In this document: positions 3,134 through 35,775 of the stretch, piece by piece
How positions within the stretch are numbered: position 1 is the stretch's first letter
How the letters are laid out: each line of letters starts with the position of its first letter
NCBI GenBank assembly: GCA_964493735.1
Contig: CAZBPN010000004.1
Location: forward strand, 4,109 to 68,108
From: an uncultured Rickettsiales bacterium
GTDB taxonomy: Bacteria > Myxococcota_A > UBA796 > UBA9615 > CAYRNR01
Direction of reading: 5' to 3'
DNA length: 64,000 nucleotides
The notes under the pieces: generated by a model
Told to the model about the DNA's origin: nothing
What the model saw: only the letters and a program-made list of their open reading frames with translations
The model's database searches: none
Program-made: the position numbers and the translations under genes

Positions 3134-4072
3134 TCAGGGGACCAGTTTTGCCCCGAAGACCGAGTCGGATCCACTGTTGACCGTCGAATCCAGGATCACC
3201 TCGACCGTGCCCTCCAGGCAGTAGTGGCCGTGGTAGTCCCACACGTAGTCCCCGGAGGCATCCACCTGGTCGATGACCACGGCGTTGCCGTCCACGAGGA
3301 ACAGGGCGCCGTCGGGGTTGCGGTTCTCGGTGTGCCGGCCGCCCACGTACGCGTCGTACCAGCCGCGAGGCACGTTGGAGAAGGTGAACGTCGCGGTGCC
3401 GGTGCGCGATCCGTCCGGGGCGTACAGGGCGTCGCACTCCTCGTGCTCGTCCCCCGACGCCGTGTAGGCATAGGGCCGGCAGGTCAGCACCCAGTTGTGC
3501 CGCTCCGTGTAGGCGGCCACGTCGTAGTCGATCTCCATCTCGTAGGGCGGGTTGCCGGGATCCGTCTCGCAGGAGTCGTCGTCGTCGTCGTCTCCCCCGG
3601 GGAACTCGCACTCGCACCAGTCGGACTGGTGGCCGTTGACGTCGCCACAGCTCAGCACGTTCTGTGGCTCCTTGATGCAGCCCGGCTCACCGCCGTAGCG
3701 CCGGACGCAGACCATGCCGGCGGCCGCGCAGTAGGCCCCGCAGCCGGCGCCGTCGGTGAACACGCCGTTGCAGTAGTCGTCCCCGGTCTCACAGACCTCC
3801 CACGCCGGGTTGGTCTGGGAGATCAGCGAGCAGTCAGCCGGGGTGGTGTCGTCGTCCCCGGTGTCGTCGTCGGCCGTGTCGTCGTCTCCGGTGTCGTCGT
3901 CCCCGGTGTCGTCGTCCCCGGTGTCGTCGTCGGCGACGTCGTCGTCGTCCCCCGTCAGGTCGTCGTCGTCGCCCACGTCGTCGTCGCCGGCCACGTCGTC
4001 GTCGTGTACCGACGTACAGCTCAGCGCCCAGGGAGACAGTGCGAGCAACAAGGCCAGGATCGTGACACGCAT
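3134..4072 (-). CDS. secreted Cys-rich lipoprotein with an acidic (DDDTG)n linker; function unknown
   Basis: Signal peptide with lipobox LSC, then a DDDTG repeat, then a Cys-rich module and a C-terminal domain of unknown function. A GGAGGGG ribosome-binding site is upstream. Confidence 0.65.
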   Translation of the reverse strand: MRVTILALLLALSPWALSCTSVHDDDVAGDDDVGDDDDLTGDDDDVADDDTGDDDTGDDDTGDDDTADDDTGDDDTTPADCSLISQTNPAWEVCETGDDYCNGVFTDGAGCGAYCAAAGMVCVRRYGGEPGCIKEPQNVLSCGDVNGHQSDWCECEFPGGDDDDDDSCETDPGNPPYEMEIDYDVAAYTERHNWVLTCRPYAYTASGDEHEECDALYAPDGSRTGTATFTFSNVPRGWYDAYVGGRHTENRNPDGALFLVDGNAVVIDQVDASGDYVWDYHGHYCLEGTVEVILDSTVNSGSDSVFGAKLVP

Positions 4073-4139
4073 GGGGCCCCTCCGTCCGTCGGCAGGATAC
4101 CAGAGGGGGCGGCGTACCCCGCCGCTGGCGGATCGGGGA

Positions 4140-5084
4140 TCAGCCGAGGCGGGTCAGGAGCTCGGCGTGGGGTTCGTCTCCCAGGTCGCGGAGGCGAACG
4201 CGCTGGGCGGCCAAGAGGGCCGCCAGGTTGATCGCGGGGCGGTCGTCGCGGGCGGCGTCGGTGGCGTCGAGCAGGACGATGCGCAGGCGCGGCACGGTGG
4301 TCAGGGCGCGGGCCGCAGCCTCCTGCTCGGCGAGCATCGCCTCGTGGCCGGGGTGGGAGCCCACGTTGCCCCGCCCATCGGTGATCAGGACCAGCAACCG
4401 CCGCCGTCCATCATCCCGCCGTCCGTCCGCGGCCAGGGTGTCCAGGGATCGCTGCAGCGCGGACGCCAGTGGCGTCGTCCCGCCGCAGGGTAGACCGGCG
4501 ACGGCGCGCCGCACCAGCTCGGCCTGGGCGGTGGGCCGCAGCAGCAGGGGGGCATCACGGCCGGCGAACGCGATCAGCGCGACCTGGTCCCGCTGCAGGT
4601 AGGCGTCTCGCAGCAGGCCGACGGCGGCCCGCCGCGCCAGGGCGATCCGCTCGCCGCCCATGGAGCCGGAGGCGTCCACCGTGAACAGGACGAGGCGGCC
4701 CGGCCGGATGCGTCGGCGATGAGCGCGGAGGTCGGTCCGATCCAGACGCAGGGGCAGCTCCGGGGCACCGCTGGCCCCGAGTCGGGGCGCCGCCCGCGCC
4801 AGGGTCTGCGTCCAGGCCAGGTCCCGGGAACCGTCGGCCGGCCGGCTGCCCCAGGGGTGTCCCCGGTGGGGCCGCCCCGACGGCACCGACCGGCCCCGGC
4901 GCCGGCCGGGGTTGGCGGTCCGTTCCCGGTCGCCCGACAAGACCTGCTCCTCCCCGGGGAGGGGGGCAAGCAGGGGGGCGTCGGCGTTCGCCGGGGCGAA
5001 CAGCCCGAGCCCGAACAGCCCTTCTGAAGGGGATGCCGGCGCCTTGCCGTCCCGTGCCGCGGCGGTCGCGACGTCGCCCTGCAA
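4140..5084 (-). CDS. VWA (von Willebrand factor A) domain protein resembling the C-terminal half of the ChlD/BchD subunit. The start codon is uncertain: TTG at 5084 or GTG at 4886, or the protein is made as a fusion by a minus-one frameshift from the upstream ChlI-like gene
   Basis: The C-terminal 250 aa carry the MIDAS motif (VLFTVDASGSMGG) and match the ChlD-type VWA domain (LITDGRGNV). This frame has no in-frame ATG upstream of the VWA domain. The same frame continues upstream through a Pro-rich linker (RRPPPLTPGAPDREPPPPQ) to the ChlI-like stop codon. Confidence 0.5.
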   Translation of the reverse strand: MQGDVATAAARDGKAPASPSEGLFGLGLFAPANADAPLLAPLPGEEQVLSGDRERTANPGRRRGRSVPSGRPHRGHPWGSRPADGSRDLAWTQTLARAAPRLGASGAPELPLRLDRTDLRAHRRRIRPGRLVLFTVDASGSMGGERIALARRAAVGLLRDAYLQRDQVALIAFAGRDAPLLLRPTAQAELVRRAVAGLPCGGTTPLASALQRSLDTLAADGRRDDGRRRLLVLITDGRGNVGSHPGHEAMLAEQEAAARALTTVPRLRIVLLDATDAARDDRPAINLAALLAAQRVRLRDLGDEPHAELLTRLG

Positions 5085-6248: not shown

Positions 6249-8096
6249 TCAGAAGCCGAAACCGAGCGCCCGTCGGCGCACCATCTGCTGGATGTAGTCG
6301 TCCACCTCGGCGTCCCGGTTGCGCCACCCGGCGGCCCGCACTCCCCGCAACGCCATGTCGATGGTGGTGTAGCGGACCTCCTCGAGCGCCCGCTCCGCCT
6401 TGACCTTGATCGGGCTGCCGCCGGGCCACTCGGTCTTGTAGGGCACCGGCGAGCCGTTCACCACGGCCTTGTCATAGGTGTAGCGCTTGAACGGCTCCTC
6501 CTTGGGGTGGCGATTGATCGGGTCGACCAGCTGGCGGGCCTTCAGGGCAGTCGCCAGCCCGTCGAGGGCGCCGGAGACCGCCTTCATCACCGGGGTCGGC
6601 TCGCCGATCAGCTGGCGGTAGCGCTCGTCGGCCTTGCGCACCCGTCGGCGGACCACGCCGTTGGGGGCGAAGCGGTCCATGCCCTTGAGCAGCAGCCAGA
6701 AGGTGGCGCTCTGCCGCTTGAAGTGCAGCGCCCGGTGACGCCGCAGCACCGGGTTGTCCGAGCGCCGGCAGTACTCGTAGCCGTTCATCAGCACGTCCAG
6801 GCGGCGCAGCAGCGACGGCCCCCAGGTGCGGTAGAGCAGGTCGTAGCCGTACTCGGTCAGGTTGAGGGTCTCGTGGGGCGCCAGCGACAGGTTCTTCTGG
6901 GCGCCGCTCCAGAAGTGCACGTCCTCCCAGGGCACGTCGTCGATCCGCCCCTCCTCCTTCAGCCGGTCCCACAGGGCCGTGCCCGGGAAGGGCGAGAGGC
7001 GGGTCAGCTGCTGGTAGGTGGGCATCAGCGACACGAAGTAGTTCAGGTCCTCGTGGATGTTGGTGTGGTCGTGGAAGTCCCAGCCGCAGATCCAGGCGCC
7101 CACGGTGCGGATCCCCATCGAGTGCAGCCGCGAGAAGCACTCGGCGGCGTCGATCTCGTCCCGCTTGTCGTAGCCGTGGTCGCCGGCGAACTTGGACTCC
7201 ACGCCGATGAAGACCGTGCCCAGCCCCAGCTCGGCGATGGCGTCCCAGCCGTACTTCTTCGCGAACTTGCCGATGTGGTCGATGGAGCCGAACCCGAACC
7301 AGTCGACGGCCTCCATCATCTCCGGGTGCCCCATCCAGTAGGGCCGCATCTCGTCCAGGTAGGCCGGCTGGCGGAAGTGGTCCTCCTCGACCACGAAGAC
7401 CTGGCGCACGTCCGGGAAGTGCTGGAAGTACAGGTGCATGTGCTCCACCAGCTCCTTGGGCGACAGCAGCTCGATGCGCTTGCGGTCGAACAGGGCGGTG
7501 GTCGAGCAGAAGTCGCAGCCGCCGATGCAGCCCAGCCCCGACACCAGGAAGCCGACCGCGCCCTTGGGATAGCGGCTGATGTAGGGCACGGTCCCGCCGG
7601 CCTTGGGCATCAGCGCCTGGCGGATCGGCCGGTCGGTGGCCTCGCCCAGCAGGCTGCGCATGAAGCGCACGCCCTCGCCGCTGACCACCCCGTCCACGTA
7701 CTGGCTCTGCTCCGCCTCGTCGTAGCTGGCCTGGAACGCCTGGCCGGCGTAGGAGCCCAGCAGGATCTTGGTGGCCGGCGATCGCTGGCGCACGTAGCGG
7801 CACATCTCCAGCACGCGGTCCAGGTGGACCGGGTAGGCGCTGATGCCCACCACCGGGTACCCCTTGTCGATCTCGGCGGTGAAGTCCTCCCAGCGGGGGT
7901 ACTCCAGCAGCACGGTCGGCGTGTCCACGTTCTGCGCCAGGATGTGGTTGGCGAAGCAGTGGGTGTGGGAGATCAACGAGAAGATGTCGTCCCCCTTGGT
8001 GAACCGCTGCCCGGTGGCGTCGGTCAACGAGTCGTTGGCCGGCAGGGTCGGGTAGGGGTAGGTCGGGGTGGTCAGCAGGATGCGGTTCTCCAGCAT
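6249..8096 (-). CDS. B12-binding-domain radical SAM enzyme (class B radical SAM methylase-like)
   Basis: The CX3CX2C cluster motif is present as GCIGGCDFCS, within a 615-aa protein that has an N-terminal Rossmann-like B12-binding region. The subfamily (BchE, HpnJ, HpnR or other) cannot be resolved by eye. Confidence 0.8.
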   Translation of the reverse strand: MLENRILLTTPTYPYPTLPANDSLTDATGQRFTKGDDIFSLISHTHCFANHILAQNVDTPTVLLEYPRWEDFTAEIDKGYPVVGISAYPVHLDRVLEMCRYVRQRSPATKILLGSYAGQAFQASYDEAEQSQYVDGVVSGEGVRFMRSLLGEATDRPIRQALMPKAGGTVPYISRYPKGAVGFLVSGLGCIGGCDFCSTTALFDRKRIELLSPKELVEHMHLYFQHFPDVRQVFVVEEDHFRQPAYLDEMRPYWMGHPEMMEAVDWFGFGSIDHIGKFAKKYGWDAIAELGLGTVFIGVESKFAGDHGYDKRDEIDAAECFSRLHSMGIRTVGAWICGWDFHDHTNIHEDLNYFVSLMPTYQQLTRLSPFPGTALWDRLKEEGRIDDVPWEDVHFWSGAQKNLSLAPHETLNLTEYGYDLLYRTWGPSLLRRLDVLMNGYEYCRRSDNPVLRRHRALHFKRQSATFWLLLKGMDRFAPNGVVRRRVRKADERYRQLIGEPTPVMKAVSGALDGLATALKARQLVDPINRHPKEEPFKRYTYDKAVVNGSPVPYKTEWPGGSPIKVKAERALEEVRYTTIDMALRGVRAAGWRNRDAEVDDYIQQMVRRRALGFGF

Positions 8097-9044: not shown

Positions 9045-10546
9045 CCGGTCCCCCTCCCCGGGCCGTCCAGGAACGCCCGCTCGGCCAGCGCACTGGCCGG
9101 ATCCAGCTGGCAGATCAGCGAGCGGAGATCGGCCCGGTGCGCCCCGGCCGCCTCGTCCTCGTCCCCGCGCCCCAGCGCCTCGAACAGCAGCCAGGCGGCG
9201 TTGATCTGGTGCCGCTCGGCGAGCCCGGGCAGGCCGGGGGCCGAGGGCGGGTCGTCCTGCAACCGCGCCAGCTGCGCCCGGAGCGCCTGGAGGCCCCGCT
9301 CCCGCTCCCGGAACGCCTCGGGCAGGGCGGTGAGCAGCCACGCGGCCAGGTACCCCACGTGGGACGCGTCGGCCTGGGGATCCCAGCGGTCGAGGGTCGA
9401 GTCGGCCAGGGCCCGGATGGTCGCGGCGTCGGATGCACCCCCCTTGTTCCCCTCGGTGCTCCGGGTGTAGAGCGCCAGCGCCAGGTAGACCGACGCCTCC
9501 GCGGGGGCGCGATCCCGGTCGACCTGGTCCTGGAGCAACTCGATCCCGGGGCCGGTCTCGCCGGAGAGCACGAGCGCGATGCCGTGCAGCGCCAGCAGCT
9601 CCGCATCCCCCGGGACCGCCTCCAGCCCCTGCTCCAGGGTGAACGCCGCCTCGCGGTAGCTGCCCGCGTGCATGTGGAGCTGGGCGGCCTGGCGCCACTC
9701 GGCGGGATCGCCGTGGCGGTTCGCCAGTAGCTGGCGGTGCTCGTCCACCGCCGACTGCAGATCGAAGCGCGCGCGGAAGGCCGCGCTGGGCCGGTAGACG
9801 ACCGTGGCCAGCACCCCCGCGGGCGCCGCGCCCAGCTCGAGGCGCCCGTGCAGCGCCCGCTGCAGCAGGGACTGCAGCACGTTGTGGACGAAGCTCGACG
9901 TGATCTCCCGGCGCACGAAGGCCTGGCCCAGCAGCCGCTCCGGCGTGCCCGCCTGTTCCCAGTCCAGCTCGATGAACTCCCGGTGCTCCAGCTCGAAGCC
10001 GACCCGCACGTAGGAGGCCACCGTGCGGAACGAGGCGAAGGGGATGCCGAGCTGGGTGCCCTGGTCGCACAGGGCGGCCACGTGGGCGTCGTAGGAGGTG
10101 AAGCGCGGCGGTGTCGTGCCCTCCAGCGGGCGGATCACCTGCTGGCCGATCAGCTCCTCGAGGCGGCTCACGTCGACGCCGGCCTCCTCGGCCAGCTCGT
10201 CGGCGCTCAGGGTCCGGCCGAGCCCCAGGTCCGAGGACTCCGCGAATCGACTCAGCCGCTGGGCCAGCGATTCGATGTGGAACAGGGGCTGCAGCCACTC
10301 GGGATCGAACTCGTAGAGCTCGAAGATGCGGCGCACCGTGTCCAGGGGCAGGTGGAACTCGTCCCGCAGCTTGCGCACCAGGTGCAGCAGCCGCAGGTGC
10401 TGCTCGCCGTAGCGAGCGCGGGTCTCGCAGGGCGGGAGGATCCCCTGGCGCAGGTAGTGGTGGATGAGCTCCTTGGACACGCCGGTGCGTTCCACCAGCT
10501 CGCTGATCCGGAGGCCTTCGGGACGGACGGGGGTAGAGGTGCTCAC
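9041..10546 (-). CDS. MerR-family transcriptional regulator with a large C-terminal TPR-like domain
   Basis: The N-terminal MerR helix-turn-helix is LRISELVERTGVSKELIHHYLRQGIL. It is followed by about 350 aa that are helical and repeat-like. Confidence 0.8.
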   Translation of the reverse strand: MSTSTPVRPEGLRISELVERTGVSKELIHHYLRQGILPPCETRARYGEQHLRLLHLVRKLRDEFHLPLDTVRRIFELYEFDPEWLQPLFHIESLAQRLSRFAESSDLGLGRTLSADELAEEAGVDVSRLEELIGQQVIRPLEGTTPPRFTSYDAHVAALCDQGTQLGIPFASFRTVASYVRVGFELEHREFIELDWEQAGTPERLLGQAFVRREITSSFVHNVLQSLLQRALHGRLELGAAPAGVLATVVYRPSAAFRARFDLQSAVDEHRQLLANRHGDPAEWRQAAQLHMHAGSYREAAFTLEQGLEAVPGDAELLALHGIALVLSGETGPGIELLQDQVDRDRAPAEASVYLALALYTRSTEGNKGGASDAATIRALADSTLDRWDPQADASHVGYLAAWLLTALPEAFRERERGLQALRAQLARLQDDPPSAPGLPGLAERHQINAAWLLFEALGRGDEDEAAGAHRADLRSLICQLDPASALAERAFLDGPGRGTG

Positions 10547-10565
10547 GTCAACTCCTGATTTAATC

Positions 10566-10710
10566 TACTACACGAAATCGTGTAACCAATGCAACCCTAA
10601 TCGTCAGGGGAGTGATGAAACGGGCTGGGAGTGGGGAAAACGTCCAGGTTTCCGATGGTTGCGAATTGTTCATCATCGCGTTCATCGTTTTCGTGTAACG
10701 AGTTTACACT
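10566..10710. promoter_or_regulatory. divergent promoter or operator region between the MerR regulator and the secreted peptidase genes, with lower GC and repeated TCGTGTAAC motifs
   Basis: An inverted repeat tacacgaAAtcgtgta lies at about 10569-10584. A second cgtgtaac copy lies within tgtaacgagtttaca at about 10690-10706. The region is markedly AT-richer than the flanking sequence. Confidence 0.3.
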
Positions 10711-10759
10711 AGGTTTCGACGCGGGGTGCAGACGATCTGCCCCTGGAGCGGGAGGAACG

Positions 10760-12004
10760 ATGAGGAACGTCGCCCGAACCTTCCTGAGCATCCTGGTGAT
10801 GGGGGCCCTGGTGGGCTGCTTTGCCGAGGCCCCGAAGGATCCGCCGGGGCCCCAGGCCGAGGACGACATGTCCGCCCGCAACGGCGGCCCGTCGGTGCGT
10901 CTGATGCACCCCCAGAACGGGCAGGCCGTGCCCAACCCGGTCTCCTTCGCCATCGACACCACCGCCGGGATCCACAAGGTCGTCTTGGACGCGGACGGCT
11001 GGGTCCTCGACGAGTGGGATCCCCACCACTACACGATCGTGGATTACACCTTCCAGGGCGTGAACACGCCGCGGGTGATCACCCTCACCGGGTTCGACGC
11101 CCACGGCACCCCGAAGGACACCGACAGCGTCGTTATCACGGTCTACAACGATGACGGCGGTGGCGGCTCCACCCCCGGGGGCACCGACGTCCGCATCACC
11201 GCCCCGGGCGACGGGGCCGACGTCCACAACCCCGTCACCTTCGACACCAGCTCCAACGGGATCCACGCGCTCAAGCTGTTCGCGGACGGCTACGACATCA
11301 GCGACTTCTGGAAGCCCGAGTGGGGCAGCACCCATACCTACGAGTTCTCCCAGGGCGGCACCCGGGAGATCGAGCTGGTCGGCTACGACAGCGGCTGGAA
11401 CCGGGTCGCCAAGGACGTCATCACCATCCACGTCGACGGGGCCAGCAACCCGGGCAACGACAACAACAACAACAACGGCAACAACAACAACGGGGGCAAC
11501 AACAACGGCTCGCTCAACGTCCCGTACTACTACCAGTACAGCAACGCGTACGAGCCGAGCGCCACCTGCGGGCTGACGTCGGCGGCCATGCTGCTGAGCT
11601 ACATGAAGGGCACCAGCGTCGACCCCGACACCCTCTACCTGAACTACGGCAAGGCCCAGGGGCAGTCGCCGGGTTCCCTCGCGCAGCTGTACAGCTGGGA
11701 GGGCCTGTACGCGGACTCCACCTACGGCGGCACCCGTTCCATGATCAAGAACCAGCTGGACGCTGGCCGGCCCGTGCTGGTGCACACCTTCCTCACCGGC
11801 GCGGGCCACATCATCTGCATCGTCGGCTACGACGGTAGCGGCTGGATCGTCAACGATCCGGCCGGCGACTGGTACCAGTGCTACGGCTGCGGCGCCTACG
11901 GCGACCACGTGCACTATCCCTACGGCGGCGGCGCCGACGATGCCTTCAGCCACGACGGGGACATCTGGATGTCCTCGGCGGACACGTCCTCGTTCGGCTT
12001 CTAG
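10760..12004 (+). CDS. secreted lipoprotein with two tandem N-terminal repeat modules of about 75 aa, a poly-Asn linker and a C39-like (papain-fold) cysteine peptidase domain
   Basis: The ATG at 10760 has a GGAGG ribosome-binding site and starts a signal peptide with lipobox LVGC. The two repeat modules read PNPVSFAIDTTAGIHKVVLDADGWVLDEW and HNPVTFDTSSNGIHALKLFADGYDISDFW. They are followed by NNNNNGNNNNGGNNNG. The catalytic Cys (SATCGLTSAAML) and His (GHIICIVGYD) are present. Confidence 0.7.
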   Translation: MRNVARTFLSILVMGALVGCFAEAPKDPPGPQAEDDMSARNGGPSVRLMHPQNGQAVPNPVSFAIDTTAGIHKVVLDADGWVLDEWDPHHYTIVDYTFQGVNTPRVITLTGFDAHGTPKDTDSVVITVYNDDGGGGSTPGGTDVRITAPGDGADVHNPVTFDTSSNGIHALKLFADGYDISDFWKPEWGSTHTYEFSQGGTREIELVGYDSGWNRVAKDVITIHVDGASNPGNDNNNNNGNNNNGGNNNGSLNVPYYYQYSNAYEPSATCGLTSAAMLLSYMKGTSVDPDTLYLNYGKAQGQSPGSLAQLYSWEGLYADSTYGGTRSMIKNQLDAGRPVLVHTFLTGAGHIICIVGYDGSGWIVNDPAGDWYQCYGCGAYGDHVHYPYGGGADDAFSHDGDIWMSSADTSSFGF

Positions 12005-12032
12005 CCGGACGACGGGCAGGAGGAACCTGACC

Positions 12033-13055
12033 ATGCATGCCATCCGACGCCTTCTGGGCGTGTGCGCACTCTGGACGATCCTGGCGGTCGCGGGCTGCTA
12101 CGCCCCCTACGGGGGTGGCGAGGAGCGGGAGCCCGGCGGCGGCCTGGACGGGGTGGCCCGGGACGGCTGGGGCGTCCCCGCCGTGGCCATCGTCTCCCCC
12201 TCGGACGGGTCCCGGGTCACCAACCCCGTCCTCTTCCGGATCGAGGCCACCGGCGTGGCCCGTGTCGCCCTCGACGCGGACGGCTGGGGGCTGGGTGATG
12301 CCTGGGATCCCGACCACCACCCCGAGGTGTCGTACTCCTTCAACGGGGTGGGGTTCGATCGCGTGATCACCCTCCGGGGTATCGACGAGTGGGGGGTCGA
12401 GGTCGCGAGCGACACCATCACGATCCTGGTGGAGGACGAGAGCACGCCCCCCGACGACGGCGGTGGTGATCCCCCCGACGGCGGTGATCCGGAGTGTCCG
12501 TGGTTCGAGTCGTCCATGCAGGAGTACGCCCCGGTGCAGATCGCGGCGGCGGGCCTGCCCTACGGCGCCAACCAGCTGGCCTGGTCGATGCCCTCCGCCT
12601 ATACGGTCCGCGTGCCCTTCTCCGGTCACCCCGGGTACTCGGCCAACCACGAGGGCATCGACCTGATCCACGACGACCCGGGCGTGCCGGACGTGGGCGT
12701 GCATGCGGCCGCGGACGGGGTGGTGGCCTACGTGCGGATCGGGTGCGCCGAGACCTCCCTGTTCAGCCCCAACGGACAGGCCCGCGAGTGCGGCTCGGGA
12801 TGGGGCAACCACGTGGTGATCCACCACGGCGACGGCGTGTACACCCGCTACGCTCACCTGCGGCCGGGCTACACCATCGTCGACGTGGGCTGGACCGTCA
12901 CCCGCGGCCAGCGACTGGGCGCCATGGGCAACTCCGGTCGCAGCGAGACGCGCCACCTGCACCTCGAGCTGGGCACCTCTGGCGGCTTCGATCCCTGCGC
13001 TCCGGCCCAGTCCCTCGATGCGGTCCACGACCCGGATCTGCTGCCCGGATTCTGA
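12033..13055 (+). CDS. secreted lipoprotein carrying the same N-terminal repeat module plus an M23 (LytM) metallopeptidase domain
   Basis: The ATG at 12033 has a GCAGGAGG ribosome-binding site and lipobox AGC. The shared module reads TNPVLFRIEATGVARVALDADGWGLGDAWDP. M23 motifs are HEGIDL (HxxxD) and ETRHLHLE (HxH). Confidence 0.8.
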   Translation: MHAIRRLLGVCALWTILAVAGCYAPYGGGEEREPGGGLDGVARDGWGVPAVAIVSPSDGSRVTNPVLFRIEATGVARVALDADGWGLGDAWDPDHHPEVSYSFNGVGFDRVITLRGIDEWGVEVASDTITILVEDESTPPDDGGGDPPDGGDPECPWFESSMQEYAPVQIAAAGLPYGANQLAWSMPSAYTVRVPFSGHPGYSANHEGIDLIHDDPGVPDVGVHAAADGVVAYVRIGCAETSLFSPNGQARECGSGWGNHVVIHHGDGVYTRYAHLRPGYTIVDVGWTVTRGQRLGAMGNSGRSETRHLHLELGTSGGFDPCAPAQSLDAVHDPDLLPGF

Positions 13056-13121
13056 GCCCGACGCCCTGGTAAAACGCGCCTAACCTTGTCTAGTGGCCCC
13101 TCGCCCGGGCACACTGTTGTG

Positions 13122-14207
13122 ATGGGCGAGAGCGGGGCTGCGGCCGAGGGCAACCAGGAGGCGAGCCAGGCGGAGCTGGCGGCGCGTTGGCGGGCGAGCG
13201 TCGACGGCGGGGGGACCCGCCGCGATGCGGCGCTGGCCGCGCTGCGGGGCGGCGGCCCGGCCGCCGAGCGGCCCCGGGATCTGCGGGGGATCGACCTGCT
13301 CCGCGAGGACCTGTCCGGCCTCGACCTGTCCCGCTGTGACCTGACCGGCGCTCACCTGGCCGAGGCGGACCTCTCCGGCGCCAATCTCTCCTTCTGCACC
13401 CTGGCGGACGCGGTCCTGTTCGAGGCCAACCTGGACGACGCGGAGTTGTTGAGCGCGGACCTCTCCGGCTCCGACCTGAACGGGTGCAAGGCGTCGCGGG
13501 CGGGCTTCGGCGGCGCCAACCTGACCCGGTCGACCCTGGTCAGCGCGACCCTCGAGGATGCCTCGCTGAGCAACGCGACCCTGGTGGACGCGGACTTCCG
13601 CGGCGCGTCGATGGCCGGTGCCCGGATGCGCACCTCGGACCTCTCCGGCGCCAACTTCGCCAAGGCGGACGTGCGGCGCGCGGACCTGCAGGAGAGCGAG
13701 CTGCGGGGCGCGGACTTCACCGACACCGACCTGCGTTCCGCCCACCTCAAGCGGGTGACCGGCTTCGAGCACGCCGGGTGGATCGGCACCGACGTGAGGG
13801 ACGTGGACTTCTGTGGTGCCTACCTGGTCCGGCGCCACATCATGGACGAGAACTACCTGGACGAGTTCCGGCGCCGCGACCGCCTGTCCGGGGTGCTGTT
13901 CCGCATCTGGTCGATCACCTCGGACTGTGGCCGTAGCTTCTATCGCTGGGCGCTGTGGACCGTGCTGGTGGCCGTGCTGTACGGCCTGGCGTACACGCGG
14001 GTCGACCTGGACTACGGCGACCACCCGACCTTCCTGTCCGCCATGTACTTCAGCGTGGTGACCCTGACCACCCTGGGCTACGGCGACGTGCTGCCCGCGT
14101 CGTCCGCGGCCCAGGTGCTGGCGGTGTCCGAGGTCGTCCTGGGCTACGTGGCCCTCGGCGGCCTGCTCAGCATCTTCGCGTCCAAGATGTCCCGACGGGC
14201 GGAGTGA
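13122..14207 (+). CDS. pentapeptide-repeat protein fused to a two-transmembrane potassium-channel pore domain
   Basis: About 200 aa of A(D/N)LxG-type pentapeptide repeats are followed by TM1, a pore helix with the selectivity filter TTLGYGD, and TM2. The start is either the ATG at 13122 or the TTG at 13086. Confidence 0.75.
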   Translation: MGESGAAAEGNQEASQAELAARWRASVDGGGTRRDAALAALRGGGPAAERPRDLRGIDLLREDLSGLDLSRCDLTGAHLAEADLSGANLSFCTLADAVLFEANLDDAELLSADLSGSDLNGCKASRAGFGGANLTRSTLVSATLEDASLSNATLVDADFRGASMAGARMRTSDLSGANFAKADVRRADLQESELRGADFTDTDLRSAHLKRVTGFEHAGWIGTDVRDVDFCGAYLVRRHIMDENYLDEFRRRDRLSGVLFRIWSITSDCGRSFYRWALWTVLVAVLYGLAYTRVDLDYGDHPTFLSAMYFSVVTLTTLGYGDVLPASSAAQVLAVSEVVLGYVALGGLLSIFASKMSRRAE

Positions 14208-14218
14208 GAGGGGGACCC

Positions 14219-15079
14219 GTGTTCAAGTTCCTGGCCCGCAAGAAGAAGGACCCCCGGGCCGAGCTGCGCAAGGTGCTCGGCGACCACGACCTGCCGGTGT
14301 TCTCCGGGGTGGTGATGCAGACCCTGGAGCGCATGCGGGATCCGCGCTCGTCGCCGGCCCAGATCGCCGCGGTGATGGCCGCGGACCCGGGCCTGTCCGT
14401 GCGCGTGCTCAAGTCCGTCAACACGGCGGCGTACTCGCTGCGCCGCAAGATCACCTCCCTGGACCAGGCCATCGGCCTGCTGGGGCTGGCCACGGTGGAG
14501 TCGCTGGTCCTCGCGGTGGCGGTCAAGGACTCCCTCCCCACGGCGCCGGCGCAGGGCTACGACGCAACCCGGTTCTGGAGGGCAGCGGCGCGGCGGGCCA
14601 CCACGGCCCGCGCCATCGCCGCCCGGTTCCATCCGGCGCAGGCTGCCGAGAGCTTCACGGCCGCGTTGCTCCAGGACATGGCCATCCCGGTGCTGGCGAG
14701 CGACGAGATCGGCTCCTACGGCGCCCTGCTCGAGCACTGGCACAACTCCGATGACGATCTGGCGGTCCTCGAGCACGCGGAGTTCGGCTGGAACCACCCG
14801 GAGGTGGCCACCTGGATGTGCGACGAGTGGGTCCTGCCCGAGGCCCTGGCCTCGTCCATCGGCGCCCACCACGGCGTGGTCGGCGAGGGGACCGAGGGGC
14901 TGGTCTGCCCGCCGGCGGTGACCCTGGTCTCCCACCTCCGCGAACCCGAGGATCGTGACGGCTCCGACCGGCTGGTCGAGGCGGTCCACGACGAGTTCGG
15001 CGTCGCGACCGACGAGGTGGTCGTCCTGGTCGAGGAGAGCTTCGACAACGCGGAGGAACTCGCGGCGCTCTTCGTCTGA
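14219..15079 (+). CDS. HDOD (HD-related output domain) signalling protein
   Basis: A GTG start lies 12 nt after the channel gene stop, with a GAGGGGG ribosome-binding site. The HDOD-like segment reads VVMQTLERMRDPRSSPAQIAAVMAADPGLSVRVLKSVNTAAYSL. Confidence 0.7.
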   Translation: MFKFLARKKKDPRAELRKVLGDHDLPVFSGVVMQTLERMRDPRSSPAQIAAVMAADPGLSVRVLKSVNTAAYSLRRKITSLDQAIGLLGLATVESLVLAVAVKDSLPTAPAQGYDATRFWRAAARRATTARAIAARFHPAQAAESFTAALLQDMAIPVLASDEIGSYGALLEHWHNSDDDLAVLEHAEFGWNHPEVATWMCDEWVLPEALASSIGAHHGVVGEGTEGLVCPPAVTLVSHLREPEDRDGSDRLVEAVHDEFGVATDEVVVLVEESFDNAEELAALFV

Positions 15080-15094
15080 GCCCGCAGGGCGAGA

Positions 15095-16354
15095 TCAGCC
15101 CTGGAGCCGACGCCGGCGCAGGCCGATCAAGATCAGCGGGGCGGCGAGCCCCACCCGGGCCCACGGACGCGCCGCGTGGGGCTCGGAACCGCAGGAGCAA
15201 CCGTCCTGCCCTCCGCCGGGCGGACCGGGCGGATCGCCGCCCGTGTCGTCATCCCCCGTCGCGTCGTCGTCGTCATCCCCGGCCGTCGCGTCGTCGTCAT
15301 CATCGTCGCCTGTGGCGTCGTCGTCCCCGGTGGCGTCGTCGTCGTCATCGTCGCCGGTGGCGTCGTCATCGTCCCCCGGCGGCGAGTAGCTGAACCGCAT
15401 CGCGTCGTACCCGATCTTGCGGCCGAGGGTCTCGTAGTCCTCACCGGTGTTGTCGCCCAGGTGGACGTACTGCTCGGACGAGCCGTCGAAGCGGAACGTG
15501 CCCAGGGTCTGCCAGCCCTTGTCCTCGGACTGGTTCACCGTGGCGGGGCTGACACCGTCGGCGTGGTGGATCTGGTAGGTGGCGTGGTGGGAATCGGCCT
15601 CGGTGTCGGGGATGTGGGCGTCCACCCGGTAGTCGCCGGCCACGGTCACCTCGAAGAGCCACTCCCCGGTGGTCTCCTCGACCGGCTCGTCGGTGGCGTA
15701 GGTGTAGTAGTGGTGTCCGTCGTGGCCCTCGGCCACGTCCCACCACCACTGGCTGACCCGCCGGAAGCAGCTGCCGTCGCTCTCGCTGACCACCGTCTCG
15801 TCGCCGTCCAGGGTGGCCTCGCACCCGCAGCCGGATCCGCAGTTGTCCGACGTCACCGAGGTCGGGTAGAGGGGGTCGCCCACGTCCAGGAACTCCGCGT
15901 GGATCGACTGGCACCACCAGGAGTTGCACAGCTCCTGGATCTGGTAGTGCAGGTGGGCTCCACAGACCCAGCCGGTCAGCCCCACCCGCCCGACCACGTC
16001 GCCAGCACAGACGTCGTCCCCCACCTGGAGGGAGGACGACCAGGTGTCCAGGTGCAGATAGAGTGCCGCGCTCCCGTCGCCGTGGTCGACGACCACGTAG
16101 TTGGCGTCGTTGGCGTAGGCCGCGTCGCAGCCGCCCGTGGTGGAGTCCATCCGGATCTCGTCGACCACCCCCGGCGCCGACGCCCAGACCTCCTCGCCGA
16201 CCCCCATCCCGAAGTCCCAGGCCCAGGCCCCCATGCCCGTGTGACTGCCGCCGTTGTGGTCCTGGGTGATCTGGAAGGTCGCGCCACAGCTCCACGGCAG
16301 CTCCAGCGGAGGGGTGGAGAGCACCACCAGGGTGAGGAGCGCGGGGAGCTGCAT
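15095..16354 (-). CDS. secreted M23 metallopeptidase with a D-rich (DDDATG)n region and a MYXO-CTERM sorting signal
   Basis: M23 motifs present include HTGMGAWAWDF and HGDGSAALYLHL. A C-terminal D-rich repeat is followed by GCSCGS, a hydrophobic stretch (LAAPLILIGL) and RRRRLQG, which matches the MYXO-CTERM sorting signal. Confidence 0.75.
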   Translation of the reverse strand: MQLPALLTLVVLSTPPLELPWSCGATFQITQDHNGGSHTGMGAWAWDFGMGVGEEVWASAPGVVDEIRMDSTTGGCDAAYANDANYVVVDHGDGSAALYLHLDTWSSSLQVGDDVCAGDVVGRVGLTGWVCGAHLHYQIQELCNSWWCQSIHAEFLDVGDPLYPTSVTSDNCGSGCGCEATLDGDETVVSESDGSCFRRVSQWWWDVAEGHDGHHYYTYATDEPVEETTGEWLFEVTVAGDYRVDAHIPDTEADSHHATYQIHHADGVSPATVNQSEDKGWQTLGTFRFDGSSEQYVHLGDNTGEDYETLGRKIGYDAMRFSYSPPGDDDDATGDDDDDDATGDDDATGDDDDDDATAGDDDDDATGDDDTGGDPPGPPGGGQDGCSCGSEPHAARPWARVGLAAPLILIGLRRRRLQG

Positions 16355-34497: not shown

Positions 34498-35775
34498 TCA
34501 GGGTTCCTCGATCGACTCCGGATCGTCCACCATCGGCAGGGTGAAGGAGAACGTCGTGCCCTCGCCCTGCATCGACCGGGCCTGGATCGCGCCGCCGTGC
34601 CGCTCGACGATCCGGCGGCAGATGGACAGGCCGATGCCGGTCCCCGGGTATTCCTCCCGGGTGTGCAGCCGCTGGAACACGCCGAAGACGCGCTCCAGGT
34701 ATTCCTCGTCGATCCCGATGCCGTTGTCCCGCACCGAGACGTTCCACCGACCGCAATCGATCCGGGCTGACACGTGGATCCGCGGCGGGGACTCGCTGCG
34801 GAAGCGGAGGGCGTTGGACAGCAGGTTCTGCAGCAGCTGGGTCACCTGGGTCGGGTCCGCGAGGACGGTGGGCAGGGGGTCGTGGTCGACCTCGGCGCCC
34901 ACCTCTTCGATCTGGGTCGCCAGGCTGCGGGACGCCGCCGCCAGCGCGTCCTCCAGCGCCACCGGGGTGGCTGGCTTCGCGTGGGTGCTCACCCGGGAAT
35001 AGGCGAGCAGGCCGTTGATCAGGCCCCGCATGTGATCCGCGCCGTCGACGGCGAAGCCGATGTAGGTGTCGGCGCGCTCGTCGATCTTGCCCTTGTAGCG
35101 GCGCTGGAGCAGCTGGAGGAAGGACGAGACCGTGCGCAGGGGCTCCTGCAGATCGTGGGAGGCGATGTAGGCGAAGCGCTCCAGCTCGTCGTTGGAGCGC
35201 GCCAGCTCCTCGTTGGCCTCGGTCAGCTCCGCGGTCCGCTCCTCGACCCGCTCCTCCAGGGTCTCCTTGGCGGCCTCGAGGGCCTCCTCGGCCTTCTTCC
35301 AGGCGGTGATGTCCCGGAACGAGACCGCGAACTGCCCCTTCTGCGGGCAGTAGGCCGAGATGTCGTAGTGGCGATCCAGAGGGGTGGAGTACTGCTGGAA
35401 CTCGATGGGCTCCCCGGTGAGGGCCACCTTGCCGTAGATCTCGATGAAGTCGTCGTGCTCGATCCCGGGCAGGGCCTCGGTGACCCGCTTGCCCAGCACC
35501 ATCTCCGGGGTGAGCCCGGTCAGGGTGGTGAACGCCGGGTTGATGGCCAGGAAGACGTAGTCCACGGGCACGCCGTCGTCGTCCAGCACCATCTCGTGCA
35601 GGGCGACGCCGTTGACCGAGTGCTCGAACAGCCCGCGGAAGCGCTCCTCGACCAGGTGCAGCTTGGCCCGGGACCGCTCCGCCTCCCGCTCCGCCTGCTC
35701 CAGCTGCTCGAGGCGGCCGCGGAGGGCGAGGAGTTCGGCCTCCAGCTCCTCCCGCGTCCGCCCGTCTTCACTCAT
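34498..35775 (-). CDS. PAS-domain sensor histidine kinase
   Basis: Coiled coil and PAS domain, the HisKA H-box (FAYIASHDLQEPLR) and an HATPase_c domain (DNGIGI...GTGIGL). The ATG at 35775 has a GAGGGG ribosome-binding site. Confidence 0.8.
   Translation of the reverse strand: MSEDGRTREELEAELLALRGRLEQLEQAEREAERSRAKLHLVEERFRGLFEHSVNGVALHEMVLDDDGVPVDYVFLAINPAFTTLTGLTPEMVLGKRVTEALPGIEHDDFIEIYGKVALTGEPIEFQQYSTPLDRHYDISAYCPQKGQFAVSFRDITAWKKAEEALEAAKETLEERVEERTAELTEANEELARSNDELERFAYIASHDLQEPLRTVSSFLQLLQRRYKGKIDERADTYIGFAVDGADHMRGLINGLLAYSRVSTHAKPATPVALEDALAAASRSLATQIEEVGAEVDHDPLPTVLADPTQVTQLLQNLLSNALRFRSESPPRIHVSARIDCGRWNVSVRDNGIGIDEEYLERVFGVFQRLHTREEYPGTGIGLSICRRIVERHGGAIQARSMQGEGTTFSFTLPMVDDPESIEEP

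What the first reader, a model, noticed from the sequence alone, without database searches (positions are those of the whole stretch)
13086..15079. Pentapeptide-repeat domain fused to a two-TM potassium-channel pore (TTLGYGD), translationally coupled to an HDOD signalling protein
Seen in the sequence: about 200 aa of tandem pentapeptide repeats of the A(D/N)LxG type precede TM1, a pore helix with the canonical selectivity filter TTLGYGD, and TM2. The downstream HDOD-domain gene starts 12 nt after the stop.

Established knowledge: pentapeptide-repeat proteins form right-handed quadrilateral beta-helices that often mediate protein-protein interactions or mimic DNA. Fusion to a K+ pore is uncommon.

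Inference: this is a K+ channel gated or scaffolded by a cytoplasmic beta-helix, possibly feeding a signalling partner through HDOD.
Basis: partly seen in the sequence, partly recalled or inferred. Interest (0 to 1): 0.5.

Follow-up and report, generated by a model that had tools for sequence, protein, structure and literature searches.

The report
Pentapeptide-repeat potassium channel with HDOD partner
The locus encodes a small potassium channel whose whole cytoplasmic part is a pentapeptide-repeat beta-helix, followed 11 bases later by an HDOD protein; the pair is almost never separated across many bacterial lineages, which gives the unexplained HDOD domain a concrete partner to test.

Summary
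Window 13122-14207 (+) encodes a 361-aa protein. It has 37 in-register pentapeptide repeats, a conserved two-helix linker, and a two-transmembrane potassium pore with the filter TTLGYGD. An 11-nt gap with a Shine-Dalgarno-like sequence separates it from a 286-aa HDOD-only gene (14219-15079).

The linker+pore module matches 948 clusters (50% identity) at E<=1e-10. All ten longer (365-519 aa) hits from the best-150 list that I sampled carry Ion_trans_2, and nine also carry pentapeptide repeats.

The real finding is the gene pair:
- 60 of 65 testable non-redundant loci have an HDOD gene directly downstream.
- The median gap is 9 nt.
- All three reciprocal look-ups from HDOD relatives found the channel upstream.
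- The two proteins co-diverge (Mantel r=0.67).
- Outer neighbours are unrelated, except that 10 of 65 HDOD-linked loci hold flagellar or stator-like genes, against 0 of 43 control loci.

There are no phage hits, no close plasmid relatives and no PADLOC hits.

Best reading: a dedicated channel plus regulatory-subunit module, inferred rather than shown. I found no description of it in the held literature.

The parts
13122..14207 (+). Channel gene (361 aa plus stop): pentapeptide-repeat beta-helix fused to a two-TM potassium pore.
13137..13247 (+). N-terminal cap, two helices at residues 6-22 and 33-42. It holds the family motif LxARW...RRD.
   Evidence: AlphaFold secondary structure; alignment consensus
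13272..13826 (+). 37 pentapeptide repeats (residues 51-235), about 9 coils of a right-handed quadrilateral beta-helix. Residues 51-233 carry net charge -13; the family mean is -7.9.
13821..13934 (+). Two-helix linker (residues 234-271) with the family signatures MDENYLxEFR and TSDCGRS. It is among the best-conserved parts of the protein. The second helix may act as a slide helix, which is inference.
   Evidence: Invariant R238, D242, E248, F249, W263, S267, C269, G270; helices 234-252 and 254-271
13938..13994 (+). TM1 (residues 273-291)
14037..14087 (+). Pore helix (residues 306-315) and selectivity filter TTLGYGD (residues 316-322, nt 14067-14087)
   Evidence: Ion_trans_2
14103..14204 (+). 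TM2 and a short conserved basic C-terminal tail, LGGLLSIFxxKMxRRA(D/E). There is no C-terminal cytoplasmic domain.
   Evidence: Invariant G341, Y342, L345, G346, G347, S350, K355, R358, R359; helix 328-360
14208..14218 (+). 11-nt intergenic spacer GAGAGGGGGAC with a Shine-Dalgarno-like core
   Evidence: the median gap in relatives is 9 nt, and several overlap
14219..15079 (+). HDOD-only gene (286 aa plus stop), GTG start
   Evidence: Pfam HDOD E 3.9e-44; AlphaFold pLDDT 90.6; Foldseek TM 0.72 to 3m1t, also 3hc1 and SadB
14219..14254 (+). Conserved hydrophobic-basic N-terminal peptide of HDOD, MFxFLKxKKxDP. Mean charge is +2.5 on a protein of mean net charge -12. It is predicted to be flexible.
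   Evidence: residues 1-5 have pLDDT below 50
14672..14872 (+). Partly degenerate HD pocket. Q152-D153 replaces the HD motif, and H193, H217 and H218 are retained.
   Evidence: Alignment to the di-iron HDOD 3HC1; invariants; the 3HC1 pocket is described in PMC12075610

Best explanation
This is a two-gene operon for a potassium channel and its dedicated cytoplasmic partner.

**Gene 1.** It makes a minimal two-TM potassium-selective pore, presumably a tetramer. Its only cytoplasmic mass is an acidic N-terminal beta-helix of 37 pentapeptide repeats. Two very conserved helices join the beta-helix to TM1, and a short basic tail follows TM2.

**Gene 2.** It makes an HDOD-only soluble protein with a flexible hydrophobic-basic N-terminal peptide and a half-degenerate HD metal pocket.

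**Proposed mechanism (inference).** HDOD acts as an auxiliary regulatory subunit. It docks on the beta-helix and linker 'crown' beneath the pore and sets the open probability, possibly in response to a metal or small ligand held in its pocket. The output is potassium flux and membrane potential. In flagellated lineages this output appears tied to the flagellar motor or export apparatus.

**What is shown.** The domain anatomy, the conserved filter, the near-obligate gene pairing, the co-divergence and the flagellar enrichment.

**What is inferred.** The tetramer, potassium selectivity, physical contact between the two proteins, the direction of control and the physiological output.
For: **Anatomy.**

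**Pairing.**
- 7 of 7 look-ups of channel homologues (52-85% identity) show an HDOD gene of 279-299 aa immediately downstream, with unrelated outer neighbours.
- 3 of 3 look-ups starting from HDOD homologues (40-50% identity) find the channel upstream.
- 60 of 65 testable non-redundant loci have HDOD directly downstream. The five without are L002 plus four outgroup loci at or below 40% identity.
- The median intergenic gap is 9 nt and several pairs overlap.
- The GC content of 31 representative HDOD-linked loci runs from 0.43 to 0.73, so the pairing spans many lineages.
- Pairwise identities of channel and HDOD correlate: r=0.665, with 0 of 2000 permutations reaching it.

**Membrane-proximal role for HDOD.** It has a conserved, flexible, basic-hydrophobic N-terminal peptide on an otherwise acidic protein.

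**Motility link.** 10 of 65 HDOD-linked loci hold flagellar or stator-like genes against 0 of 43 control loci (Fisher p=0.005). Examples are flgE | pair | fliN-R flhBA, flgFG | pair | flgAHI and pair | motAB. Stand-alone HDOD proteins alter swimming in Pseudomonas (PMC11813219; PMC11004494).
Against: - No direct evidence of contact between the two proteins. A co-fold could not be run here.
- The pairing alone fits signal flow in either direction.
- The window's own 64 kb has no flagellar genes. Only about 15% of loci do, so motility cannot be the general role.
- Three flagellar loci supplied the queries. Without them the count is 7 of 62. Two of those hits are weak or ambiguous: a MotA-like hit at 24% identity in L085 and a short FlhB-like hit in L040.
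- Both the beta-helix and HDOD are acidic overall. This does not favour simple electrostatic docking, apart from the HDOD N-terminal peptide and the channel's basic tail.
- One close relative, L002, has no HDOD within 940 nt downstream.
Confidence: 0.55

Rival explanations
1. The channel is the sensor and HDOD is the output. Potassium flux or the conformation of the beta-helix is read by HDOD, which then passes the signal to other targets such as the flagellar motor, chemotaxis proteins or a protease adaptor route.
For: HDOD was named an output domain. SadB's HDOD-containing protein acts as a proteolysis adaptor without needing a ligand (PMC12075610). The HDOD protein PSPTO_4229 suppresses swimming through residues predicted to mediate protein contacts. 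The pairing and flagellar data fit this reading equally well.
Against: The channel has no recognisable sensor domain other than the beta-helix. In the only characterised analogue the soluble partner controls the channel. HDOD has no further output domain.
Confidence: 0.2
2. The two genes are co-expressed but the proteins do not touch. The beta-helix is a scaffold or localisation device, for example anchoring the channel near the motor or the pole, or it gates the pore on its own. HDOD has a separate function needed under the same conditions.
For: Pentapeptide-repeat domains are generic interaction surfaces. No contact evidence was obtained here.
Against: The adjacency is near-obligate, with gaps of -8 to about 20 nt, across loci of GC 0.43-0.73 whose other neighbours all differ. 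The two proteins also co-diverge. This is unusual for functionally independent genes.
Confidence: 0.12
3. A Hailong-like abortive-infection system. The HalA-like channel is held closed by a signal made or kept by HDOD in place of the nucleotidyltransferase HalB, and it opens on phage attack to depolarise the cell.
For: HalA is the only solved full-architecture analogue. [quoted passage not shown] An integrase gene lies 1.4 kb downstream in the Deferrisoma locus. An outgroup pentapeptide channel sits beside an nSTAND3 NTPase.
Against: - No nucleotidyltransferase is adjacent.
- The potassium filter is canonical and invariant, whereas HalA is reported to let sodium in.
- No PADLOC match. That version is said not to detect Hailong, so this counts only against systems already described.
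- No phage match, and only remote Haloferax megaplasmid and Acaryochloris plasmid matches.
- Some pairs sit inside flagellar operons.
- Sequence identity to HalA is 10-11%.
Confidence: 0.07

Closest known systems
HalA, the DNA-gated ion channel effector of the Hailong anti-phage system (PDB 9nyi; Tan et al. 2025, known here only through reviews)
   Different: Sequence identity is 10-11%. The partner is a nucleotidyltransferase that makes oligo-dA, not HDOD. HalA is reported to admit sodium, whereas this family keeps an invariant TTLGYGD filter. HalA is found in defence settings, whereas this family sits in chromosomal and partly flagellar contexts.
Two-TM prokaryotic potassium channels (KcsA, NaK, KirBac; Pfam Ion_trans_2)
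   Different: There is no C-terminal cytoplasmic domain (no RCK, no Kir Ig-like domain, no KcsA helical bundle). All cytoplasmic mass is an N-terminal beta-helix. The Pfam IRK match is below its cut-off (20.4 against 22.7 bits).
Soluble pentapeptide-repeat proteins (MfpA, Qnr, AlbG, HetL, Np275/276)
   Different: Those are soluble proteins. Qnr, MfpA and AlbG interact with DNA gyrase or protect it from inhibitors. Every NCBIfam named family scores far below its cut-off here. In this protein the helix is tethered to a pore.
Stand-alone HDOD proteins (PSPTO_4229, Cj0248, Shewanella 3M1T, Geobacter 3HC1) and SadB
   Same: The same fold (TM 0.65-0.76). PSPTO_4229 (273 aa), 3M1T and 3HC1 are of similar size. 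Several affect motility.
   Different: None of them is reported with a channel partner. This clade has the N-terminal MFxFLKxKKxDP peptide and a QD-for-HD pocket that keeps 4 of the 6 di-iron ligands of 3HC1.
Kv-beta auxiliary subunits of eukaryotic Kv1 channels (functional analogy only, from my own knowledge)
   Same: A soluble, enzyme-like cytoplasmic subunit that hangs under a potassium channel. Some carry a hydrophobic-basic N-terminal 'ball' peptide that plugs the pore.
   Different: An unrelated fold (aldo-keto reductase). No homology exists, and the analogy was not tested here.

Membership tests
Pentapeptide-repeat proteins (PF00805) | Tandem A(D/N)LxX pentads in an unbroken register | tested here: met
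   37 pentads with clear phase composition; Pfam E 2.6e-34
Pentapeptide-repeat proteins (PF00805) | Right-handed quadrilateral beta-helix fold | tested here: met
Potassium channel pore (Ion_trans_2, two-TM/P-loop) | TM1, pore helix, T-x-G-Y-G-D filter and TM2 | tested here: met
Potassium channel pore (Ion_trans_2, two-TM/P-loop) | Tetrameric assembly and potassium-selective conduction | not testable with these tools
   Needs multimer modelling and electrophysiology or flux assays
Inward-rectifier / KirBac (PF01007 IRK) | Kir transmembrane signature plus a C-terminal Ig-like cytoplasmic domain | tested here: not met
   IRK scores 20.4 bits against a cut-off of 22.7. The protein ends 9 residues after TM2.
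Hailong (HalA/HalB) | HalA-type channel with a cytoplasmic crown | tested here: inconclusive
Hailong (HalA/HalB) | Adjacent HalB nucleotidyltransferase | tested here: not met
   The partner is HDOD in the window and in 60 of 65 loci. No nucleotidyltransferase family appears among the called neighbours.
Hailong (HalA/HalB) | Oligo-dA ligand holds the channel closed; phage exonuclease releases it | not testable with these tools
   Biochemical and phage assays are needed
Hailong (HalA/HalB) | Defence-island or mobile-element context | tested here: not met
   No PADLOC hit, although that version does not cover Hailong. No phage match and only remote plasmid matches. Some loci lie in flagellar operons.
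HDOD (PF08668), downstream gene | HDOD sequence profile and all-helical HD-like fold | tested here: met
   Pfam E 3.9e-44; profile against PDB 1e-33 to 3m1t; Foldseek TM 0.72
HD-superfamily metal-dependent phosphohydrolases | Complete H...HD...H...HH metal-binding set, as in the di-iron HDOD 3HC1 | tested here: not met
   The HD motif is Q152-D153 and the first His is absent. D153, H193, H217 and H218 are kept (the pocket is described in PMC12075610). Catalysis itself was not tested.

The most novel reading that the evidence does not exclude
HDOD proteins of this clade are gating subunits of a potassium channel, which would be the first defined molecular partner for the HDOD domain. Their conserved flexible N-terminal peptide MFxFLKxKKxDP might act as a tethered blocker or membrane anchor, in the manner of a 'ball and chain'. 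The state of the HD-like pocket would be coupled to it. The pair would set membrane potential and so tune flagellar motor output in the lineages where it sits among flg, fli and mot genes. More broadly, pentapeptide-repeat 'crowns' would be a general gating module for prokaryotic channels, recruited once for immunity (Hailong) and once for physiology (this clade).
Probability: 0.3. Interest if true: 0.8.

Novelty: new variant of a known kind. Interest (0 to 1): 0.6.

Why it matters
HDOD is a very common bacterial signalling domain, and no mechanism has been agreed for it. The papers read here still call it a domain of unknown function. A near-obligate partnership with a minimal potassium channel offers a direct assay for an HDOD protein, through currents, flux and membrane potential.

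It also defines a large uncharacterised class of prokaryotic potassium channels. Their regulatory domain is a beta-helix rather than an RCK, cyclic-nucleotide-binding or Kir-type domain.

The flagellar association suggests a route by which potassium or membrane potential is tied to motility.

Finally, it places the recently described Hailong channel HalA within a broader and mostly non-immune superfamily.

Tried and rejected
**Searches that gave little or nothing**
- The genome-contig scan with the single protein found only two true relatives, L001 and L002. The other hits were generic pentapeptide proteins. I later used those as controls.
- The primary Hailong paper is not held, so HalA is known here only through reviews and PDB matches.
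- The HalA sequence could not be retrieved for a direct alignment. 9nyi is not among the best 60 rows shown by either PDB sequence search.
- Literature searches returned nothing for 'pentapeptide repeat' with 'potassium channel' and 'selectivity filter', for HDOD with pentapeptide, for 'pentapeptide repeat' with Ion_trans_2, and for HDOD with 'potassium channel'. Searches on pentapeptide repeats with bacterial potassium or ion channels, and on HDOD with 'ion channel', found only incidental co-mentions, apart from the Hailong-like lead in PMC13586616.
- PADLOC gave no hits.
- NCBIfam gave only sub-threshold matches for the channel and none for HDOD.
- The promoter and terminator scan of 10400-15400 found nothing.
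- Rfam and tRNA scans of the window found nothing.
- Cluster look-up gave no organism names.

**Ideas considered and dropped**
- Low-complexity artefact: rejected because of the repeat register and the fold.
- DNA-mimic or gyrase-protection role of the Qnr or MfpA type: rejected because the helix is tethered to a pore and every Qnr or MfpA model scores far below its cut-off.
- KirBac membership: rejected.
- The upstream C39/C70 and M23 peptidase genes as part of the module: rejected because they are not conserved next to the pair in relatives.
Full report
**1. What is in the sequence**

The window has about 71% GC throughout. ORF 13086-14207 (+) is real. Its probable start is ATG 13122, giving 361 aa. 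This matches full-length homologues of 361 aa and the gene call on a contig that carries an identical sequence.

Pfam finds Pentapeptide (E 2.6e-34, six stretches), Pentapeptide_4, Pentapeptide_3 and Ion_trans_2 (E 2.8e-13). Residues 51-235 read as 37 pentads in one unbroken register. Alanine dominates phase 1, D/N/T phase 2 and L/F/M phase 3. These are true A(D/N)LxX repeats, not compositional bias. The underlying DNA shows the expected 15- and 30-nt periodicity.

An AlphaFold model built on 53 homologues has mean pLDDT 89.1. Its elements are:
- two N-terminal cap helices;
- a beta-helix from about residue 50 to 233, with pLDDT above 95;
- two helices at 234-252 and 254-271;
- TM1 at 273-291;
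- a pore helix at 306-315;
- TM2 at 328-360.

The filter TTLGYGD is at nt 14067-14087. The protein ends nine residues after TM2, so the beta-helix is its only cytoplasmic domain.

The stop codon (14205-14207) is followed by 11 nt, GAGAGGGGGAC, and then GTG 14219. That GTG starts a 286-aa protein made of a single HDOD domain (E 3.9e-44). The next gene lies on the opposite strand.

**2. How common the fusion is**

The word-indexed search returned 3,044 significant proteins among the 8,000 candidates it scored. The best 120 all have the same Pentapeptide + Ion_trans_2 architecture at 48-85% identity and near-full coverage.

An exhaustive search with only the linker+pore segment (141 aa) found, among 1.84 billion cluster representatives, 51 at E<=1e-30, 948 at E<=1e-10 and 7,852 at E<=1e-3. 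Ten hits of 365-519 aa taken from the best-150 list all carry Ion_trans_2, and nine of them also carry pentapeptide repeats. The fusion is thus a large superfamily.

Within the close family the most conserved parts are not the repeats. They are the linker (MDENYLxEFR, TSDCGRS), the filter and the C-terminal LGGLLSIFxNKMARRA(D/E).

**3. The gene pair is the main result**

Seven look-ups of channel homologues at 52-85% identity all showed an HDOD gene of 279-299 aa immediately downstream on the same strand, 8-12 nt away. The outer neighbours were unrelated from one lineage to the next. The homologues come from MAGs labelled Myxococcota and Gammaproteobacteria, from Deferrisoma, and from unlabelled marine metagenomes.

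The reverse test used three HDOD homologues at 40-50% identity. All three had a pentapeptide channel gene directly upstream.

A metagenome scan with the family alignment added 80 loci. After clustering at 90% identity, 69 loci carry the family's linker+pore module and 65 are testable. Of those, 60 have HDOD directly downstream. The five without are L002, a close relative with only 940 nt of odd downstream sequence, and four loci at or below 40% identity that belong to other subfamilies.

Further points on the pairing:
- The median intergenic distance is 9 nt, and several pairs overlap by 1-8 nt.
- Thirty-one representative HDOD-linked loci span GC 0.43-0.73.
- Pairwise identities of the channel and HDOD correlate across 51 pairs (r=0.665; 0 of 2000 permutations reach it). 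The two genes have travelled together.
- No third gene is conserved.

**4. Context**

In three of the ten annotated loci the pair lies among motility genes:
- fliK-flgD-flgE | pair | fliN-O-P-Q-R-flhB-flhA;
- flhF-flhG-fliA-flgF-flgG | pair | histidine kinase ... flgA-H-I;
- pair | motA-motB.

I used the flagellar proteins of these three loci as queries. With them, 10 of 65 HDOD-linked loci hold flagellar or stator-like genes, against 0 of 43 control loci. The controls are pentapeptide or potassium-channel hits without HDOD and total 387 kb (Fisher p=0.005; details).

There are caveats. Three of the ten supplied the queries, which leaves 7 of 62. One MotA-like hit and one FlhB-like hit are weak. 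The window itself has no flagellar gene in 64 kb. The association is real but partial.

The linker+pore segment has no match in 50,697 phage records. In 72,556 plasmids it has only remote matches, on Haloferax megaplasmids at 27% identity and on one Acaryochloris plasmid. PADLOC finds nothing, although that release is said not to detect Hailong.

**5. The HDOD partner**

The model (pLDDT 90.6) matches solved HDOD proteins: 3m1t with TM 0.72, 3hc1 and SadB.

I aligned it against the Geobacter HDOD 3HC1. That protein's pocket binds two iron ions through five histidines and one aspartate (PMC12075610). This clade keeps D153, H193, H217 and H218. It has Q152 in place of the HD histidine and lacks the first histidine. 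The pocket is half-degenerate, so ordinary HD-type catalysis is doubtful and a sensing or binding role is more likely. That is inference.

The first 12 residues, MFxFLKxKKxDP, are conserved, hydrophobic and basic (mean +2.5) on a protein of mean net charge -12. They are predicted to be flexible. The beta-helix of the channel is acidic (mean -7.9, and -13 in the window). The channel's linker and C-tail are basic.

**6. Comparison with what is known**

According to reviews (PMC13434031 and PMC13276650), HalA is a tetrameric channel with a cytoplasmic crown. Oligo-dA made by the operon partner HalB binds between subunits and keeps the pore shut. Phage exonucleases remove the oligo-dA and the cell depolarises. 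[quoted passage not shown]

The present family shares the logic of a channel with a crown plus a soluble operon partner. It fails the defining Hailong features that could be tested:
- there is no nucleotidyltransferase;
- there is no defence or mobile context;
- the potassium filter is invariant and canonical, whereas HalA is reported to admit sodium.

I therefore do not file it as Hailong. It also fails KirBac membership, because the IRK match is below its cut-off and there is no C-terminal domain. Other pentapeptide-channel subfamilies have yet other neighbours, for example an nSTAND3 NTPase beside L101. This suggests the crown+pore chassis has been paired with different partners.

Stand-alone HDOD proteins have been tied genetically to swimming in Pseudomonas syringae and P. 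protegens, and the latter paper cites the HDOD proteins GsmR of Xanthomonas and Cj0248 of Campylobacter. No mechanism or partner is known. Ten full-text searches found no paper that links HDOD or pentapeptide repeats to a potassium channel in the way seen here. The library lacks most subscription journals, so this is absence within the held library only.

**7. Most likely mechanism**

My best-supported reading, at confidence about 0.55, is a two-component potassium channel. Four pore subunits would hang four acidic beta-helices and a conserved helical collar under the membrane. The HDOD protein would bind this crown and set gating, perhaps using its N-terminal peptide and reporting the state of its pocket. 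The output would be potassium flux or membrane potential, and some lineages have wired this into the flagellar regulon.

The rivals are:
- the reverse signal direction, with HDOD as the output (0.2);
- co-expression without contact (0.12);
- a Hailong-like defence role (0.07).

**8. Verdict**

The finding is real and better than it first looks in one respect: the obligate HDOD partnership and the motility link. It is more ordinary in another: the fusion itself is widespread.

It is a new variant of a known kind, a partner-regulated prokaryotic potassium channel. It has been seen in databases but, within the held library, has not been described or studied. Interest 0.6.

Noticed in passing
L031:1976-4997: In a 5.87-Mb metagenomic contig the channel gene is split by a group II intron. 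Exon 1 covers residues 16-265 (1976-2716). Then come intron domains D1-D4 (2728-2863), a reverse-transcriptase/maturase ORF (3160-4539) and domain V/VI (4563-4634). Exon 2 covers residues 250-361 (4662-4997). HDOD and motA-motB follow. A second group II intron fragment lies on the minus strand at 7947-8065.
   Followed up: partly
window 10631-13055 and 15095-16354 (-): The pair is flanked by three predicted peptidase genes. Upstream and co-directional are a Peptidase_C39_2/C70 protein with a poly-Asn linker (CAA-type repeats at 11455-11509) and a Peptidase_M23 protein; both have weak Big_7 Ig-like matches. Downstream and convergent is a Peptidase_M23 + Golvesin_C protein with an acidic D/T/G-rich repeat (tandem repeats at 15245-15373). 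These genes are not conserved next to the pair in relatives.
   Followed up: partly
L085:8001-9344, L087, L088, L090: A longer sub-clade (about 448 aa, 37-39% identity) has an insertion of about 115-130 codons between TM1 and the pore helix, probably an extracellular loop. Its HDOD gene lies 45-500 nt downstream rather than about 10 nt. L088 also has fliP-fliQ-flhB-flhA nearby, and L085 has fliA and a motA-like gene.
   Followed up: no
L101:1057-4559; L096:1908-5601: Outgroup pentapeptide-channel subfamilies at or below 40% identity lack HDOD. L101 sits next to an nSTAND3 NTPase gene on the opposite strand, which is defence-like. L096 is a 302-aa version with filter TFTTLGFGD, followed by two ORFs with no Pfam match and then a third ORF of 124 aa that was not scanned.
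   Followed up: partly
Plasmid hits H1-H5 (e.g. NC_013964.1:408213-408605): Haloferax megaplasmids encode 'pentapeptide repeat-containing proteins' that match the linker+pore segment at 27% identity, so the crown+pore chassis reaches archaea.
   Followed up: no
L001 (CAYTBN010000031.1): An 85%-identical locus with 68.5% GC is deposited as 'uncultured Rickettsiales bacterium'. The nearest named protein is from a Myxococcota MAG (P0001). The taxonomic label of that bin looks doubtful.
   Followed up: no
L002:6963-7906: This is the one close relative (54% identity over the full length, 65% in the linker+pore) without HDOD downstream. The 940 nt after the channel hold no convincing gene before the contig ends. 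It could be a rearrangement or an assembly break.
   Followed up: partly
window 34534-35241 (-): A histidine-kinase-like region is 41% identical to the GAF-HisKA kinase that follows the pair in L032. It lies about 20 kb from the pair in the window, so it is probably unrelated.
   Followed up: no
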